This document shows positions 1 through 5,638 of a stretch of DNA of 5,638 bases, one piece after another. The position numbers and the translations under genes are program-made. Source of the DNA: a virus (taxonomy: Duplodnaviria; Heunggongvirae; Uroviricota; Caudoviricetes); IMG/VR virus record IMGVR_UViG_3300029079_000073. One strand, 5' to 3'. Positions within the stretch are counted from its first letter, which is position 1. Each line of letters starts with the position of its first letter. The notes beneath the pieces were generated by a model that saw nothing but the letters and a program-made list of their open reading frames with translations, searched no databases and had not been told where the DNA came from.

Positions 1-62
1 GTGCAACCGACGACGACCAGCGGCAACATCATCACGCAGAGCATCATTTTCAGCTTTCGCAT
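1..62 (-). CDS. rzoD: Rz1 o-spanin (outer-membrane lipoprotein), 5' part only; embedded in the +1 frame of Rz and running off the window
   Basis: Minus-strand ATG at 62..60 preceded by AAGGAG (75..70) with a 7-nt spacer. Translation [20 protein letters not shown] ends in a lipobox-like VVGC; this matches my recollection of lambda Rz1 ([20 protein letters not shown]...). Lies wholly inside the Rz reading frame, as in lambda. Confidence 0.7.
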
Positions 63-282
63 CAGCTAACTCCTTCAGGTATTTTGCATCGAGTGCAGCA
101 ACATCACGCTGGCGTATCTGCATGTCAGTAATGATTGCGGTCGCCTGGTTGAGTTTTTCCTTCACATTATCGCGTTGCGCTTTGTAGGTAATGGCATTAT
201 CACGGTAATGATTAACAGCCCATGACAGGCAGACGATGATGCAGATAACCAGAGCGGAGATAATCGCGGTTACTCTGTTCAT
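1..282 (-). CDS. rzpD: Rz i-spanin (inner-membrane spanin subunit), N-terminal 94 codons; 3' end beyond the window
   Basis: Hand translation of the minus strand from ATG 282..280 gives [94 protein letters not shown] with no stop to position 1; near-identical to recalled lambda Rz. The start overlaps the R stop (ATGA, 282..279). Not in the ORF track, presumably because it runs off the window edge. Confidence 0.85.
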
Positions 283-776
283 TGCTGACCCCACAAACAG
301 ATTTCACGCTCAATCTCACGACGAGTCATGAGACCTTTCCATTGCTTACCGCCAGCATATGTCCAGCGACGTAGCTGATCACATGCGCCTTTGATATCGC
401 CCTGGTTTATTTTGCGAAGAAGCGTCGATGTTCTGAAATTGCCAGCGCCCACGTTGTAAACGAACGAGTAAAGAGCGCCGCGCGTTGTTTCCGGTATATC
501 AACTTTTATGTACGGGTTAATTTGTCTGGCGACCGTGGCAAGGTCTTTATTCAGGAGGGCTTTGCATTCTGCTTTGGTATACGTTTTACCGAGCATGATG
601 TCTTTTCCTGTATGCCCGTGACATACAGTCCATACACCAACAATATCTTTGTATGGTATGTAGCTGACACCTTCCAGACCATCGTTACCACTTGGGCCAG
701 TGATTAACACTGATGCTATAGCAATTGCTCCGCCACCAATAGCAGCAGCAACGGCTTTTCGTAATGATGGAGGCAT
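279..776 (-). CDS. rrrD: SAR endolysin (phage 21 R-type, T4-lysozyme-like muramidase)
   Basis: 165-aa ORF. N-terminus is a Gly/Ala-rich weakly hydrophobic segment ([20 protein letters not shown]) typical of a signal-arrest-release domain. Glu35, Asp44 and Thr50 are present in the E-x8-D-x5-T spacing of the lysozyme triad. SD-like GAGGTG lies upstream of ATG 776..774. The start overlaps the holin stop (TAATG). Confidence 0.93.
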
Positions 777-991
777 TATTCACCTCTCGCAGCCTTGCGC
801 TTATCTTCTTTAATCTTGAAATAAAGGTTTGTCAGGTACGTCAGCAGGCCAAATACCAGGCTACCCAGCACACCTATTGCTGCCCACTGTGAGGGCGTGA
901 CTTTATCGAGCAGCTGTAAAAACCAGTAACCGGCACTACCTGCTGAGGTGCCATAGGCGACACCCGTTGTTAACTTATCCATGGATTTCAT
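776..991 (-). CDS. essD: Class II holin / pinholin (S21-type) with dual-start motif
   Basis: ORF track gives 776..1036 (86 aa), but the internal start MKSMDKL at 991..989 is preceded by GAGGTGG and yields the 71-aa size of phage-21 S. Met1-Lys2-Ser3-Met4 is the classic antiholin/holin dual start. Two predicted TM segments ([12 protein letters not shown]; [17 protein letters not shown]) and a charged C-tail [13 protein letters not shown]. Confidence 0.88.
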
Positions 992-1239
992 AACCCCACC
1001 TCGCAGACAAAGCGGGTGTAAATTGAGGGAATACAACGTATCGCAAAAAAGCAGAAACGTAACAGACTCGGAGTCAGTGAATAACTCAGGTATTGAGTTA
1101 TCAGCTAATATCGAGACTCAAAAAATGGAAAAACCAGCTCGACGGCGGGTTTAAGCTGTGTGACGAAGTAACCACTCTTAACAGCATAACCAATTTTTTA
1201 CGTACGTAAACCACTGAATGATATTTATGAGAATGCTAC

Positions 1240-1579
1240 CGAGTGTTCAAAACACCACCACAAATATATAAGAAAACCTCAACAAATAACCAATAAATAA
1301 TTTCCGGCGTTATTTTTAGTTGATTTAAATTAAACCACCGAATTATAGAACCCCCATAAATAACAGCCATTAATATAAATTAGCTAATAGGTTTATTTTT
1401 GTTCAAATAAGAGCCATAAATAGGTTTCGATAGAAAAAGTTCAGATAAAAATAGAGATCTACTTCACAAATTAAATGAGAAACTAAAACTTACATCTTGA
1501 AATAATCACATTGATTAGATGAATATTTATCGCGCAGTGACATCATTTTTTAATAATAGTTCAAAAAAAAGGGCTCACG
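1240..1579 (+). promoter_or_regulatory. Strongly AT-rich upstream region of the porin gene (promoter / nucleoid-protein binding region); boundaries approximate
   Basis: Visibly AT-dominated sequence with A/T tracts and short direct repeats (CCATAAATA at about 1364 and 1413; ATAGGTTT at about 1387 and 1419), directly 5' of the porin start. A weak SD (AAGGG) precedes ATG 1580. No single -35/-10 pair could be assigned with confidence. Confidence 0.35.
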
Positions 1580-2662
1580 ATGAAAAAATTAACAGTGGCA
1601 ATTTCTGCTGTAGCTGCATCAGTACTGATGGCGATGTCTGCTCAGGCAGCTGAAATTTATAATAAAGACAGTAACAAGCTGGATCTGTACGGGAAAGTTA
1701 ATGCCAAGCACTACTTTTCCTCTAACGATGCAGATGATGGTGATACTACTTATGCCCGTCTTGGCTTCAAAGGTGAAACCCAAATCAACGATCAACTGAC
1801 TGGTTTCGGTCAGTGGGAATATGAATTCAAAGGCAACCGCGCTGAATCTCAAGGTTCCTCCAAAGACAAAACCCGTCTTGCATTTGCAGGCCTGAAATTC
1901 GGTGACTACGGCTCAATCGATTACGGCCGTAACTACGGTGTAGCATACGACATCGGTGCGTGGACTGACGTTCTGCCAGAATTCGGTGGCGATACCTGGA
2001 CCCAAACAGATGTGTTCATGACTGGTCGCACCACTGGTGTTGCAACCTATCGTAACAACGACTTCTTTGGTCTGGTCGATGGCCTGAACTTTGCTGCTCA
2101 GTATCAGGGTAAAAATGACCGCACTGACGTAACTGAAGCCAATGGTGATGGTTTCGGTTTCTCCACTACTTATGAGTATGAAGGATTCGGCGTGGGTGCA
2201 ACCTATGCTAAATCAGATCGCACTGACGGTCAGGTCGCCTATGGTAAGAGCAAATTCAATGCCTCCGGCAAAAATGCGGAAGTATGGGCTGCAGGCCTGA
2301 AATATGATGCGAACAATATCTATCTGGCTACCACATATTCTGAAACTCAGAATATGACCGTTTTTGGTAATAACCATATTGCAAACAAAGCACAAAACTT
2401 TGAAGCAGTAGCACAATATCAGTTTGACTTCGGTCTGCGACCATCTGTTGCTTACCTTCAGTCAAAAGGTAAAGACCTTGGTGTTCATGGTGACCGAGAC
2501 TTAGTCAAGTATGTCGATGTCGGTGCTACTTACTACTTTAATAAAAACATGTCCACTTTTGTTGATTACAAAATCAACTTAATTGACGATAGTAAGTTTA
2601 CCAAAACAGCTGGTATTGATACCGACGACATCGTCGCTGTAGGTCTGGTGTATCAGTTCTAA
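1580..2662 (+). CDS. nmpC: General diffusion porin of the OmpC/OmpF/PhoE family, NmpC/Lc (prophage-borne) type; intact
   Basis: 360-aa ORF with a signal peptide ([23 protein letters not shown], then AEIYNKD). Porin hallmarks: the conserved start of the mature protein [15 protein letters not shown], Gly/Tyr/Asp-rich beta-strand pattern, and a C-terminal Phe (VGLVYQF). Position between Q and S on the opposite strand matches nmpC in DLP12 and lc in phage PA-2. Confidence 0.92.
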
Positions 2663-2670
2663 TCTGATTA

Positions 2671-2712
2671 CGAAAAAGATATGTTGCGGGAGGCTTTGCC
2701 TCCCCAACATAT
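2671..2712 (-). terminator. Candidate intrinsic terminator for minus-strand transcripts (possible tR'-like terminator of a short late leader)
   Basis: Imperfect inverted repeat ATATGTTG(C)GGGAGGC / GCCTCCCCAACATAT at 2679..2712 with a 3-nt loop. Read on the minus strand it is followed directly by CTTTTTCG (2678..2671). Confidence 0.4.
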
Positions 2713-2800
2713 AAGTGGCTCCCTCAAGCCACTTCCTTTAGAAGCACAACCTTGCTTCTAACTATATAAACCTTCTGTTATATATTACCCTTTATTTTTG

Positions 2801-2826
2801 GGGGCGTCTCAACGCCCCATTTTTAA
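2801..2826 (+). terminator. Rho-independent terminator of the porin gene
   Basis: GC-rich stem GGGGCGT (2801..2807), loop CTCA, ACGCCCC (2812..2818), followed by ATTTTTAATAATTTTT. Lies about 140 nt after the porin stop. Two further short perfect hairpins sit between (AAGTGGCT/AGCCACTT at 2713..2734; GAAGCA/TGCTTC at 2741..2758). Confidence 0.6.
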
Positions 2827-2851
2827 TAATTTTTAGTAAACAATTGGCATA

Positions 2852-3067
2852 TTAATTAGAGTTATTAACAACGATATCCATCTCTAACCGGATATCTAAT
2901 GCCATTAACATCCCTTCAATTATGCCCTCAGCCTTCTGTAACCTTTTCCCGATATAACCATCAGAGCAGCAATGCTTACCTGCCAGTGACATGAATGTCA
3001 TACCGACTACATAATAATCTACTAATAAATCGTGCAAATCGCTGTTGTTCTTTTTCAGACGGGCCAT
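2852..3067 (-). pseudogene. quuD: Late antiterminator Q (QuuD / Q21-family) remnant: C-terminal 71 codons only, 5'-truncated
   Basis: 71-aa ORF ([71 protein letters not shown]) matches the C-terminal half of the ~127-aa DLP12 QuuD as I recall it. An in-frame TGA lies 10 codons upstream (3097..3095) and the intervening codons (LPRCEDACY) are rusA sequence read in another frame. No SD before ATG 3067. Confidence 0.7.
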
Positions 3068-3381
3068 GTAACAGGCATCTTCACAACGCGGTAATCAACG
3101 ACCAGCTCATCATCCAGCCAGAAACCTGCTTTAGTGAGTGCGTCAAAAGCGGCTTTTTGCAGATTATCCAGGTCACGGCGACGGCGATCCGGCATGTGGC
3201 ACTCAATGCGGATTTTCACAGGCATAGCCAGGCCGATATCCAGCATTGCGTTTTTAATGATTCGGGCGACGTTATCGCGGTATGCCTGCCCCTCTGCGCT
3301 GACGTGCGTGCGCCCGCGATTATGGCGGTAATAGCGATTATTGCTCGGAGGCCAGGGTAATGTGATGCTGTAGGTATTCAC
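3055..3381 (-). CDS. rusA: Holliday-junction resolvase RusA (108 aa; C-terminus differs from the canonical 120-aa protein)
   Basis: Translation [91 protein letters not shown]... matches recalled E. coli RusA through about residue 105, then ends WPV-stop. GTG start at 3381..3379 overlaps the ybcO stop (GTGA). Confidence 0.9.
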
Positions 3382-3668
3382 GCCTTAATAACCCCCTCTT
3401 TCAGCCAGATAACCTGTGTTCTCGCCATACCTTCCAGCGCGCATTCTTTTGCATATGCAGCATCGACAAAATGTGTGCGGCGGTCGATTTCGTCGTGGCA
3501 GGCAGAACATGCAATGGTGGCAATCAGGTCTGGCGGTTTGGTACCGGTGCCGCACAATCCAGTCAGCCGGATATGTGCCAGTACAGACGTTTCAGGGTTG
3601 CCATTACATACGCCAGGGATTCTTACCTGGCATTCCCGACCACGCGCTGCTTTTCTCAAATCAGCCAT
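3378..3668 (-). CDS. ybcO: YbcO-like prophage protein (Cys-rich, putative zinc-binding nuclease; DUF1364-type)
   Basis: ORF track gives 3378..3707 (109 aa). The internal start [23 protein letters not shown]... at 3668..3666 is preceded by AAGGAGG with a 5-nt spacer and gives the 96-aa size I recall for DLP12 YbcO. Contains C-x7-C and C-x2-C motifs. Overlaps the stop of the upstream P/NinE ORF by 8 nt. Confidence 0.85.
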
Positions 3669-4371
3669 GATTCCTCCTTGCTGCCAGTCGCAACCATTTT
3701 TTATCAACCAGGCTGGCGGTATATCCGAGCAGTGTTGGTATTTCGGATGGTTTCAGCTCAGGCTTACGCTTACGACGATTTGGTACTCTGTAGATGTGTC
3801 CGTTCATGACACGAATACCGCCCATAACAGGAAGTTGTTTTACTGGTTCAGGTATCGTCTCACCACGGTTAATTCGCGCTGTCATACAGGTCAGTTCATC
3901 GGCAGCCTTGCGCCGTAATTCCGCGTCAGTCAGCGCATTGGCCCGCATGTTCTGGTACAAGTTGGTAACCAACCAGTAATGCGCGTTCGATTTCCACGGA
4001 TAAGACTCTGCATCCGGATACAGGCCACGCTTCCGGCAATACTCGTAAACCATATCAACCAGCTCGCTGACGTTTGGCAGCCCGGCGTTAACAGATGCTT
4101 CTTCCCGGCACCAGGCGACAAACTGCCCGGGTGATGGCAGGAATGGTCGATTCTGCCGACGGGCTACGCGCATTCCAGCGTTAACCTGTTCCATTGTGGT
4201 GATCCCGTTTTCCCGGAAAGCCAGAACCCACTGGCGGCGGATTTCGTTCAGTTCATTCTGGTCACGGTTAGCCAGGCTCGCCGGGAAAGTTGCCAGTAAC
4301 TGGCTGAACACACCGTTGATGATCTGCGCTACCTGCTGTACAGGCAACACGTAAAGATCCAACCAAGCCAA
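3661..4371 (-). CDS. Chimeric ORF: replication protein P (lambda P-like, lacking both termini) fused in frame to NinE; probably a deletion product
   Basis: Residues 11 to about 185 (VQQVAQIINGVFSQLLATFPASLANRDQNE...EPVKQLPVMGG) are near-identical to recalled lambda P residues about 33..207. The C-terminal about 50 residues ([51 protein letters not shown]) resemble NinE. The first 10 codons (TTG start at 4371, then AWLDLYVLP) are unrelated to P; SD AAGGAG sits only 3 nt before the TTG. Confidence 0.75.
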   Translation of the reverse strand: MAWLDLYVLPVQQVAQIINGVFSQLLATFPASLANRDQNELNEIRRQWVLAFRENGITTMEQVNAGMRVARRQNRPFLPSPGQFVAWCREEASVNAGLPNVSELVDMVYEYCRKRGLYPDAESYPWKSNAHYWLVTNLYQNMRANALTDAELRRKAADELTCMTARINRGETIPEPVKQLPVMGGIRVMNGHIYRVPNRRKRKPELKPSEIPTLLGYTASLVDKKWLRLAARRNHG

Positions 4372-4404
4372 AATCTCCTTACCTCACAACACGGCAAGCC
4401 TGCA

Positions 4405-4433
4405 TTGCGGCGCTTCAGTCTCCGCTGCATACT
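4405..4433 (+). promoter_or_regulatory. Weak sigma70-like promoter candidate for the integrase gene
   Basis: TTGCGG (4405..4410), 17-nt spacer, CATACT (4428..4433), about 40 nt upstream of the int ATG; SD-like GAGGAAAG at 4464..4471. Hexamer matches are weak (3/6 and 4/6 to consensus). Confidence 0.2.
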
Positions 4434-4474
4434 GTCCAGGTGAGCGCGGGTGATGGCATAACAGAGGAAAGAAA

Positions 4475-5638
4475 ATGTCACTCTTCCGCAGAAATGAAAT
4501 ATGGTATGCCTCGTATTCGCTCCCGGGCGGGAAACGAATTAAGGAATCTCTTGGCACAAAGGACAAGCGGCAAGCTCAGGAGTTGCACGACAAGCGAAAA
4601 GCAGAACTCTGGCGAGTAGAAAAGCTAGGGGATTTACCTGATGTCACTTTTGAAGAGGCCTGCCTAAGATGGCTTGAGGAAAAAGCTGATAAAAAATCTC
4701 TCGATTCAGATAAAAGCCGGATTGAGTTCTGGCTTGAACATTTTGAGGGTATAAGGCTTAAAGATATCTCGGAGGCAAAGATTTACTCTGCTGTAAGCAG
4801 AATGCATAACAGAAAGACGAAAGAAATATGGAAACAGAAAGTTCAGGCCGCCATCAGGAAAGGTAAAGAACCGCCTGTTTATGAACCAAAGCCAGTATCA
4901 ACTCAGACAAAGGCAAAGCATCTTGCCATGATAAAGGCCATTCTCCGTGCTGCAGAACGCGACTGGAAGTGGCTGGAAAAAGCGCCTGTCATCAAGATAC
5001 CAGCGGTCAGAAACAAGCGAGTCAGATGGCTGGAAAAGGAGGAAGCAAAACGCCTTATTGATGAGTGCCCCGAACCACTGAAATCTGTCGTCAAGTTTGC
5101 GCTGGCAACTGGTCTGAGAAAGTCGAACATCATAAATCTGGAATGGCAACAAATCGACATGCAGCGACGAGTTGCCTGGGTGAATCCAGAAGAGAGCAAA
5201 TCAAACCGCGCCATTGGTGTGGCGCTGAACGATACCGCCTGTAAAGTGTTGCGTGATCAAATAGGCAAGCATCACAAATGGGTGTTTGTACATACCAAGG
5301 CGGCTAAGCGAGCAGATGGAACATCAACGCCTGCGGTCAGGAAGATGCGCATCGACAGCAAGACATCATGGCTATCAGCTTGTCGTCGTGCAGGAATTGA
5401 AGATTTCCGTTTCCATGACCTCAGACACACCTGGGCAAGCTGGCTGATTCAGTCAGGCGTCCCATTATCAGTGCTTCAGGAAATGGGCGGATGGGAGTCC
5501 ATAGAAATGGTTCGTAGGTATGCTCACCTTGCGCCTAATCATTTGACAGAGCATGCGAGGAAAATAGACGACATTTTTGGTGATAATGTCCCAAATATGT
5601 CCCACTCTGGAATTATGGAGGATATAAAGAAGGCGTAA
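4475..5638 (+). CDS. intD: Tyrosine recombinase / phage integrase (DLP12 IntD, P21-family)
   Basis: 387-aa ORF with N-terminal arm-binding-like region and a C-terminal catalytic domain carrying tyrosine-recombinase signatures (ATGLRKSN box I region; [10 protein letters not shown] and VRRYAHL with the catalytic Tyr). Matches my recollection of E. coli IntD. SD GAGGAAAG precedes the ATG. The stop is the last codon of the window. Confidence 0.95.

What the first reader, a model, noticed from the sequence alone, without database searches (positions are those of the whole stretch)
3661..5638. Integrase sits directly against a P remnant: the whole early/immunity/excision region appears deleted
In lambdoid prophages int is separated from replication gene P by xis, the recombination genes, N, the repressor/cro region and O. 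Here the int start (4475) and the divergent P-derived ORF start (4371) are about 100 bp apart. There is no xis, repressor, cro, O or origin, and the first 10 codons of the P ORF are unrelated to P. This is the signature of a grounded prophage that cannot excise or replicate yet keeps an apparently intact integrase. The 4372..4474 spacer contains an imperfect inverted repeat (TGCA-tt-GCGG ... CCGCTGCA, about 4401..4429) that could be a regulatory site or a junction scar.
Basis: partly seen in the sequence, partly recalled or inferred. Interest (0 to 1): 0.6.

Follow-up and report, generated by a model that had tools for sequence, protein, structure and literature searches.

The report
Decayed DLP12 prophage: integrase beside P stump
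This is a heavily deleted copy of DLP12, the common E. coli cryptic prophage at the argU tRNA gene, in which three clean deletions have put an intact integrase gene next to a stump of replication gene P; that is ordinary prophage decay, but the cut point in P recurs in unrelated deletions.

Summary
intD (4475-5638, +) lies 103 bp from the start of a divergent 236-codon ORF (3661-4371, -) that is mostly replication protein P. The locus is a rare structural variant of DLP12, the E. coli cryptic prophage at argU.

Against the intact DLP12-type phage PhiR68_2, the window has three deletions: 438 bp, 5,066 bp and 8,117 bp. The int-side breakpoint is at 4339-4341 (shared TAC), inside the ORF and not in the 4372-4474 spacer.

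Window 4339-5638 is 100% identical to intact phages. So the spacer and its weak inverted repeat are native sequence, namely the 3' three-quarters of a P22-type xis that overlaps int. They are not a scar. xis has lost codons 1-31, including its helix-turn-helix.

The "P ORF" is a triple chimera: 10 antisense-xis codons, P residues 33-207, then NinE residues 6-56. No second att core lies within 10.9 kb in an identical genome, so the element cannot excise or replicate.

This junction occurs in 7 of 5,426 complete E. coli genomes.

Unexpectedly, the same TA in P is the endpoint of at least seven different deletions. I could not explain this.

The parts
4475..5638 (+). intD, an intact 387-aa tyrosine integrase
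   Evidence: PF00589 E 5.5e-47. 100% nucleotide identity to the integrase of phages 2G7b, ev243 and PhiR68_2, and 99.76% to K-12 intD. R215, H314, R317, W340 and Y349 are present and align with the HP1 integrase catalytic motifs. In an identical genome argU starts 16 nt after the stop codon.
4339..4619 (+). xis remnant: codons 32-123 of a P22-type excisionase gene, with no start codon and no helix-turn-helix; overlaps int by 145 nt
   Evidence: The full gene is L007 11910-12281 (PHROG 2907 excisionase, E 5.9e-46; HTH_17 at residues 6-36). Window homology begins at L007 12001.
   Evidence: Contiguous with int and 100% identical in intact phages. No sigma-70-like promoter or terminator was found in 3600-4700.
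4401..4429 (.). imperfect inverted repeat TGCAttGCGG...CCGCTGCA, lying inside xis coding sequence
   Evidence: Fold z-score +0.28; 124 of 200 shuffles fold as well. Present unchanged in intact phages.
4339..4341 (.). junction J3: P nucleotide 96 joined to xis codon 31/32, with shared TAC
   Evidence: blastn against NCCP12480, 2G7b and PhiR68_2, plus parental alignments. 8,117 bp are missing relative to PhiR68_2. Found in 7 of 5,426 complete E. coli genomes and one IMG/VR contig.
3817..4341 (-). P fragment: residues 33-207 of 233
   Evidence: PF06992 E 8.6e-62. 100% identical to L002 6001-6526. PGAP marks it as a pseudogene lacking both termini.
3661..4371 (-). chimeric 236-codon ORF: 10 codons of antisense xis, then P 33-207, then NinE 6-56
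   Evidence: TTG start. No evidence of expression.
3816..3817 (.). junction J2: ninE codon 5 joined to P 80 nt before its stop codon, with shared TA
   Evidence: 5,066 bp are missing relative to PhiR68_2 (ybcN, ybcM, ybcL, ybcK, ylcJ, emrE, ren, 3' end of P). Found in 6 of 5,426 genomes.
3661..3825 (-). ninE, 5'-truncated; its annotated start codon is a Met codon donated by P
   Evidence: PGAP annotation in the identical genome; translation.
3378..3668 (-). ybcO (DUF1364)
   Evidence: PF07102 E 1.1e-42; annotation.
3055..3381 (-). rusA, lacking its last 16 codons (108 aa instead of 120)
   Evidence: PF05866; homology ends at window 3068.
3068..3068 (.). junction J1: rusA 3' end joined to the interior of quuD, with 1 shared nt (G)
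   Evidence: 438 bp are missing (rusA end, ylcG, the first 55 codons of quuD).
2852..3067 (-). quuD fragment: the C-terminal 71 residues of the late antiterminator
   Evidence: PF06530, profile positions 57-118 only; PGAP pseudogene.

Best explanation
[quoted passage not shown] It has decayed through at least three internal deletions.

The deletion relevant to the finding (J3) joined nucleotide 96 of P to codon 31/32 of xis across a 3-nt shared TAC. Relative to an intact phage of the same type, it removed the P N-terminus, O with the origin, cII, cro, cI, the recombination genes and the 5' end of xis.

What remains:
- An integrase gene identical to that of living phages.
- A headless xis.
- A P stump fused at its other end to ninE.

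No replication initiator, origin, repressor, functional excisionase or partner att site remains nearby. The late antiterminator Q is also truncated. The element is therefore fixed in the chromosome.

The 103-bp spacer is ordinary xis coding sequence.

Shown: the identity of each piece, the breakpoints to the nucleotide, and the absence of the genes.

Inferred:
- The junctions arose by illegitimate, microhomology-associated deletion inside the prophage.
- Int is retained passively, not because it is used.
- The chimeric ORF is not functional.
For: - Six complete E. coli genomes are 100% identical over 3600-5638. There the locus is argU-intD-P'-ninE-ybcO-rusA-quuD'-porin-essD-rrrD-rzpD-iss.
- Phage PhiR68_2 carries the complete DLP12 gene set in the same order. 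The window maps to it in four collinear blocks separated by gaps of 438, 5,066 and 8,117 bp.
- Window 4339-5638 is 100% identical to 2G7b, ev243 and PhiR68_2.
- Parental alignments show each junction with 1-3 nt of shared sequence.
- xis was identified by PHROG 2907 and HTH_17. Only its first 31 codons are missing here.
- The 45-nt att core lies beside int. No second copy, not even an 11-mer, occurs in the 10.9 kb that spans the whole remnant out to cusC.
- K-12 and other strains show sibling deletion variants at the same locus.
- DLP12 is the most prevalent E. coli cryptic prophage, found in 74% of 638 genomes (PMC6379469).
Against: - Nothing contradicts the identification.
- It is uncertain whether J3 was one 8.1-kb event or a 1,253-bp event in a prophage that had already lost cI-exo. 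NCCP12480 is 100% identical to the window on all retained blocks and has such an intermediate structure.
- SW071614 carries the same J3 junction with a P' allele 3.2% divergent (17 mismatches within 3925-4282). So either the junction arose twice or flanking sequence has since been exchanged.
- Expression and activity of IntD were not tested.
- Only 10.9 kb to the left of int was searched for a second att core, not the whole genome.
Confidence: 0.9

Rival explanations
1. The J3 deletion, and most sibling deletions, were made by a sequence-specific activity that breaks and joins at TA. Candidates are a TA-targeting transposase that once sat in P, a serine recombinase using TA as its crossover dinucleotide (the phage carries YbcK and a Pin-type invertase), or a fixed DNA end created near the lambda-type origin. 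On this view generic replication slippage is not the cause.
For: - The same TA in P (window 4339-4340) is the endpoint of seven different deletions. The partners are xis codon 31, exo nt 25, a methyltransferase gene, int nt 161, int nt 899, the cro region and bet. Every partner shares TA.
- A TA in ninE is used with two partners.
- 11 of 16 mapped junctions have TA in the microhomology, against 3-15% expected. For the first 10 junctions mapped, P is about 6e-10 if they are treated as independent.
- Three of the seven TTACCT sites in the 13.3-kb region serve as endpoints.
- EC06 belongs to the K-12-like lineage and probably re-used the site after an earlier deletion there.
Against: - No insertion sequence or recombinase site was found at the P site in any sequence examined.
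- Five junctions lack TA (G, AA, AA, CCA, T). One of these, the O junction in NCCP12480, was examined as a prospective test of the TA rule and failed it.
- Partner sites share no clear motif beyond TA(CC).
- The statistics are post hoc and the junctions are not fully independent.
- Three of the seven partner types are each seen in only one complete genome, and two more only in single IMG/VR contigs.
Confidence: 0.25
2. The junction is not an internal deletion. It is a joint formed by illegitimate recombination between two different phage genomes, for example a resident remnant and an incoming argU-integrating phage that supplied a fresh xis'-int module.
For: The int block is 100% identical to living phages, whereas the P' block is only 94-95% identical to those same phages. 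The two sides therefore have different histories.
Against: NCCP12480 carries both blocks at 100% identity in the same order and orientation, with the missing 1,253 bp between them. Lambdoid mosaicism by homologous exchange explains the unequal identities without a special event. All retained blocks are collinear with the intact phage.
Confidence: 0.06
3. The deletion was made by IntD acting on a secondary attachment site inside P.
For: The 2G7b P allele shares the 9-mer ACCTGCGGC with the att core, in direct orientation, right at the hot site.
Against: The predicted product of P site x att core recombination is absent from all 5,426 genomes. The observed partners are not att sites. The shared sequence at junctions is 2-6 nt, centred on TA, and not a 7-bp overlap region.
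Confidence: 0.03
4. The int-P adjacency is the native gene order of a family of compact phages or satellites.
For: None found.
Against: P is truncated at both ends, xis lacks its start codon, and Q and rusA are truncated. Every intact relative has 8-10 kb between P and int. PGAP marks P and quuD as pseudogenes.
Confidence: 0.01

Closest known systems
DLP12 cryptic prophage of E. coli K-12 (intD, xisD', exoD', P remnant, ren::IS3, emrE, ybcK ...)
   Same: Same chromosomal site (argU). Same integrase (99.76% over 1,259 nt). Same lysis, nin and Q-region genes. It also has a P stump a few hundred bp from int and a truncated xis.
   Different: - K-12 keeps a 279-nt exo fragment between P' and int. 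Its xis starts at about codon 45 (int -95), and its P' is only the last 312 nt.
- K-12 keeps ren, emrE, ybcK, ybcL, ybcM, ybcN and an intact quuD and rusA, all lost or truncated here.
- K-12 retains a 47-bp attR and excises at below 1e-5 (PMC6379469, PMC3105296). The genome identical to the window has no second core within the remnant.
Phage PhiR68_2 (PV340576.1) and relatives 2G7b and ev243: intact argU-integrating lambdoid phages
   Same: int plus 136 nt upstream are 100% identical. The order of all retained genes is the same. PhiR68_2 even carries emrE, ybcK, ybcL, ybcM, appY and ompT, as K-12 DLP12 does.
   Different: They have full xis, the recombination genes, cI/cro/cII, O, full P, Q and all structural genes. 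The window lacks 13.6 kb of the corresponding 19.3 kb.
DLP12 variant of E. coli NCCP12480 (NZ_CP068680)
   Same: 100% identical to window 3068-5638 on every retained block.
   Different: It still has full P, a 5'-truncated O, DUF4222, full xis, ren, emrE and ybcN. It has its own 6,864-bp deletion from O to upstream of DUF4222, with shared CCA. It is a plausible structural intermediate.
Bacteriophage P22 int-xis module
   Same: IntD-type integrases match Salmonella P22-like phage int at 77-79% nucleotide identity. Xis belongs to a 117-position excisionase family, PHROG 2907; calling it P22-type rests on my recollection that P22 Xis is 116 aa.
   Different: Different attachment site (argU, not thrW, from general knowledge). 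Here xis is decapitated.

Membership tests
DLP12-type cryptic prophage at argU | Integrase immediately adjacent to the 3' end of tRNA-Arg argU, with the phage supplying the tRNA 3' segment | tested here: met
   In six genomes 100% identical over 3600-5638, argU starts 16 nt after the int stop codon. The 45-nt core is shared with the attP of intact phages. The window itself ends at the int stop codon.
DLP12-type cryptic prophage at argU | intD allele and DLP12 gene order (rzpD-rrrD-essD-porin-quuD-rusA-ybcO-ninE) | tested here: met
   99.76% identity to K-12 intD. Pfam assignments and PGAP annotation agree with this order.
DLP12-type cryptic prophage at argU | Defective: lacks replication, immunity and structural genes | tested here: met
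   Three deletions were mapped against PhiR68_2. Beyond iss the identical genome runs into a tssI fragment and then cusS.
Tyrosine recombinase (phage integrase) | PF00589 catalytic domain with the R, H-x-x-R, H/W and Y residues | tested here: met
   E 5.5e-47. R215, H314, R317, W340 and Y349 align with HP1 integrase 1AIH.
Tyrosine recombinase (phage integrase) | Catalytic activity on att substrates | not testable with these tools
   The only support is sequence identity to the integrase of inducible phages.
P22-type excisionase (PHROG 2907) | Start codon and N-terminal helix-turn-helix (residues 6-36) | tested here: not met
   Window homology begins in codon 31. Only codons 32-123 remain.
Lambda replication protein P | Phage_lambda_P domain | tested here: met
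   PF06992 E 8.6e-62, profile positions 1-162 of 162.
Lambda replication protein P | Full-length protein with its own start and stop, encoded next to O and the origin | tested here: not met
   Residues 1-32 and 208-233 are missing. O is absent from the window.
Int-promoted deletion at a secondary att site | One endpoint in the att core; product P site x att core | tested here: not met
   The predicted junction is found in 0 of 5,426 genomes, and the observed partners are not att.
IS-mediated adjacent deletion | An insertion sequence retained at the fixed endpoint | tested here: not met
   No IS abuts the P site in any of the 9 loci or contigs carrying it. Prior presence of an IS followed by its loss cannot be excluded.

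The most novel reading that the evidence does not exclude
One TA dinucleotide 96 nt into gene P of DLP12-type prophages (window 4339-4340) is a natural deletion hot spot. It has been used at least seven separate times with different partners, all at a TA. Two smaller recurrent sites exist as well, one in ninE and one in xis. This points to an undescribed sequence- or structure-directed breakage and joining process that shapes how lambdoid prophages decay, rather than random slippage.
Probability: 0.3. Interest if true: 0.55.

Novelty: already known. Interest (0 to 1): 0.27.

Why it matters
As framed, the finding matters little. DLP12 is the textbook grounded prophage, and an integrase left beside gene stumps is its known state. 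This is just a rarer, smaller variant, seen in 7 of 5,426 complete genomes.

Two things have some value.

- The locus gives a nucleotide-exact decay series. It runs from a living phage (PhiR68_2) through intermediates such as NCCP12480 to a remnant of about 6 kb. Such a series is useful for studying how prophages are whittled down.
- The deletion endpoints are strikingly non-random: one TA in P is used with seven partners. If that reflects a specific mechanism, prophage decay would be partly directed, and the idea could be tested in PhiR68_2 lysogens.

Tried and rejected
- **Inverted repeat as a functional hairpin or scar.** The fold is no better than shuffles. The sequence is native to intact phages.
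- **Promoter or terminator in 3600-4700.** None was found on either strand, so the source of int transcription is unknown.
- **IntD secondary-att hypothesis.** It was suggested by a 9-nt match between the P site and the att core. The predicted product is absent from 5,426 genomes.
- **Counting truncated P copies with a 160-nt query across the P site.** This was uninformative, because most genomes carry other lambdoid prophages with intact P.
- **Sampling right-hand endpoints with a 1.2-kb xis-int query.** It showed the main classes: the full xis-int segment in 934 genomes, the K-12 type, and a yfdT mosaic. It gave few new junctions.
- **Pattern scans of IMG/VR and metagenomes anchored on the P and ninE sites**. 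These added two new P-site partners (cro region, bet), one more J3 copy and one more P|exo copy. They found no IS-bearing precursor and no new ninE partners.
- **TA rule tested prospectively on the NCCP12480 O junction.** It failed; the shared sequence is CCA.
- **Motif guesses for the hot site.** I considered IS608 TTAC, the IS5 target, gix/hix half-sites, an EcoP15I site, Chi, and RusA cutting 5' of CC. I weighed these by eye only, and none fitted consistently.
- **Lindsey et al. 1989.** The paper could not be read.
Full report
**What is in the window**

ORF listing and Pfam scans assign the genes as follows.

| Coordinates | Strand | Assignment |
|---|---|---|
| 279-776 | - | lysozyme |
| 776-1036 | - | P21-type holin |
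| 1580-2662 | + | intact 360-aa porin |
| 2852-3067 | - | C-terminal fragment of antiterminator Q |
| 3055-3381 | - | RusA |
| 3378-3707 | - | YbcO |
| 3661-4371 | - | 236-codon ORF: full Phage_lambda_P domain (E 8.6e-62) plus a weak NinE match at residues 198-233 |
| 4475-5638 | + | 387-aa tyrosine integrase (E 5.5e-47) |

**Identity of the locus**

- Megablast of 3600-5638 against 5,426 complete E. coli genomes gives six 100% full-length matches.
- In strain SCZE5 the region is annotated argU, intD, P (pseudogene, both ends missing), ninE, ybcO, rusA, quuD (pseudogene), porin, essD, rrrD, rzpD, iss. A tssI fragment and cusS follow.
- This is the DLP12 cryptic prophage site. K-12 intD is 99.76% identical to the window's.
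- DLP12 is the most prevalent E. coli cryptic prophage, present in 74% of 638 genomes (PMC6379469). In K-12 it still excises at below 1e-5 per cell (PMC3105296).

**Intact relatives**

- Window 4339-5638 is 100% identical to phages 2G7b, ev243 and PhiR68_2.
- PhiR68_2 (PV340576.1, 49.7 kb) has the complete DLP12 gene set in order:
  - int, DUF4222, DksA-like, orf61, orf63, orf60a;
  - exo, bet, gam;
  - cI, cro, cII, O, P, ren;
  - emrE, ylcJ, ybcK, ybcL, ybcM, ybcN;
  - ninE, ybcO, rusA, ylcG, Q;
  - porin, S, R, Rz, bor;
  - head and tail genes, then ybcY, appY, ompT.
- The window maps to PhiR68_2 as four collinear blocks:

| Window | PhiR68_2 | Identity |
|---|---|---|
| 1-3068 | 19332-16265 | 94.3% |
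| 3068-3817 | 15826-15077 | 98.1% |
| 3816-4341 | 10010-9485 | 94.9% |
| 4339-5638 | 1367-68 | 100% |

- Three deletions, of 438, 5,066 and 8,117 bp, separate these blocks.

**The breakpoints** (parental alignments)

- **J3, window 4339-4341.** It joins P nucleotide 96 (…CTGCTGTAC) to a point 136 nt upstream of int (…GCCGCCTAC|AGGCAAC). TAC is shared.
- **J2, window 3816/3817.** It joins ninE codon 5 to P 80 nt before its stop codon. TA is shared.
- **J1, window 3068.** It joins the rusA 3' end to the interior of quuD. One G is shared.
- The 236-codon ORF is therefore a triple chimera: ten codons read from the antisense of the int-upstream segment, P residues 33-207 of 233, then NinE residues 6-56.
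- PGAP's ninE start codon is a Met codon borrowed from P.

**The spacer is xis**

- In the intact phages, an unannotated 123-codon ORF (L007 11910-12281) runs into the first 145 nt of int.
- It matches PHROG 2907 'excisionase' over 116 of 117 positions (E 5.9e-46). It has an HTH_17 domain at residues 6-36.
- J3 falls in codon 31/32. The window therefore keeps codons 32-123 (4339-4619) but has lost the start codon and the DNA-binding helix-turn-helix.
- The repeat folds no better than shuffled sequence: z = +0.28, and 124 of 200 shuffles fold as well.
- No sigma-70-like promoter or terminator is predicted in 3600-4700.

**Can the element move?**

- IntD carries R215, H314, R317, W340 and Y349, which align with the HP1 integrase catalytic motifs. 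At the nucleotide level it is identical to the integrase of inducible phages.
- The 45-nt att core (the argU 3' segment) lies beside int. No second copy, not even an 11-mer, occurs in the 10.9 kb reaching cusC in the identical genome.
- With no partner att, no Xis, no O or origin, a truncated P and a truncated Q, the element is grounded. I infer that Int is retained passively.

**How the early region was lost**

- NCCP12480 is 100% identical to the window on every block from 3068 to 5638. It still has full P, a truncated O, DUF4222 and full xis, and it carries its own 6,864-bp O-to-DUF4222 deletion.
- J3 may therefore have been a 1,253-bp second step rather than a single 8.1-kb loss. The two routes are equally parsimonious.
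- J3 occurs in 7 of 5,426 genomes and J2 in 6.
- The seventh J3 genome, SW071614, has a P' allele 3.2% divergent and different cargo in place of emrE-ybcK. Either the junction arose twice, or flanks have since been exchanged.
- The full DksA-DUF4222-xis-int segment is present in 934 genomes.

**Unexpected: recurrent endpoints**

Mapping sibling variants showed that the same TA in P is the left endpoint of seven different deletions.

| Partner | Shared sequence | Source |
|---|---|---|
| xis codon 31 | TAC | the window |
| exo nt 25 | GTACC | LD27-1 and at least 8 more genomes |
| methyltransferase gene | TACC | AR_0085 |
| int nt 161 | TACCTG | EC06 |
| int nt 899 | TA | strain D2 |
| cro region | TA | IMG/VR contig |
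| bet | TA | IMG/VR contig |

- None of these variants can be derived from another without re-using the exact site. EC06, which belongs to the K-12-like lineage, probably did re-use it.
- A TA in ninE has two partners, P (here) and the DksA-like gene (2017-03-3CC).
- A site in xis (window 4396/4397, shared AA) is used in two unrelated deletions.
- Overall, 11 of 16 mapped junctions contain TA in the microhomology, against 3-15% expected by simulation.
- Caveats:
  - The statistics are post hoc.
  - Junctions sharing a site are not independent.
  - Three of the seven partner types are each seen in only one complete genome, and two more only in single IMG/VR contigs.
  - One prospective test of the TA rule failed.
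- An Int secondary-site model was tested and rejected.
- No IS was found at the site.
- I could not identify the mechanism.

**Verdict**

- Four details need correcting:
  - the breakpoint position;
  - the surviving xis remnant;
  - the inverted repeat, which is no better than chance;
  - the second truncation of P.
- The phenomenon is a known one: a rare structural variant of DLP12. Interest is low as framed.
- The recurrent TA-anchored endpoints are the only part that might repay further work.

Noticed in passing
window 4339-4341 (P site); L004 8526, L005 6526, L010 5526, L057 3033, L063 4613, L065 (reverse strand) 2659: The same TA, 96 nt into P, is the endpoint of seven different deletions. 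The partners are xis, exo, a methyltransferase gene, int nt 161, int nt 899, the cro region and bet, and all share TA. This looks like a deletion hot spot of unknown cause.
   Followed up: partly
window 3816-3817 (ninE site); L011 5216-5218: The ninE endpoint of junction J2 is re-used in strain 2017-03-3CC with a different partner, the DksA-like gene, with shared ATA.
   Followed up: partly
One retains the right side (FDN-24) and the other the left side (an IMG/VR contig). Both share AA.
   Followed up: no
L060 and L061 (PhiR68_2, PV340576.1): This is an intact phage with the full K-12 DLP12 gene complement. It includes emrE, ybcK (a large serine recombinase), ybcL, ybcM, appY and ompT. These 'host-like' DLP12 genes are therefore cargo of a living phage.
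   Followed up: partly
L007 11910-12281; L008 about 4985-5356: The 123-codon xis overlaps int by 145 nt. It is unannotated in 2G7b and PhiR68_2. In phage Turner a different-frame 56-codon ORF is annotated instead. PGAP calls its first 22 codons an incomplete HTH pseudogene even in loci where the xis DNA is complete.
   Followed up: partly
window 3661-3825: The P'-ninE fusion is in frame. The annotated 54-aa NinE starts at a Met codon that belongs to P.
   Followed up: yes
window 1580-2662: The prophage porin gene (nmpC/ompD-like, 360 aa) is intact here. It is interrupted by an IS in AR_0085 and 2017-03-3CC.
   Followed up: no
L006 4084-5717 (SW071614): In the other J3-bearing lineage, the emrE-ybcK module is replaced by a NADAR-family gene and a phosphoribosyltransferase-like gene. 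This may be a defence cargo.
   Followed up: no
window 3055-3381: rusA lacks its last 16 codons because of junction J1, yet PGAP annotates it as an ordinary rusA protein (108 aa).
   Followed up: partly
L007 2066-2078 versus the att core just past the window end (L001 11055-11099): In the 2G7b P allele, the 9-mer ACCTGCGGC at the P hot site also occurs in the 45-nt att core, in direct orientation. The predicted Int-mediated product was not found in any genome.
   Followed up: yes
L001 3838-5190: In the identical genome, the far side of the remnant ends at iss (bor), followed by a tssI/VgrG fragment and then cusS. The K-12 attR, envY and nfrAB region appears to be missing.
   Followed up: partly
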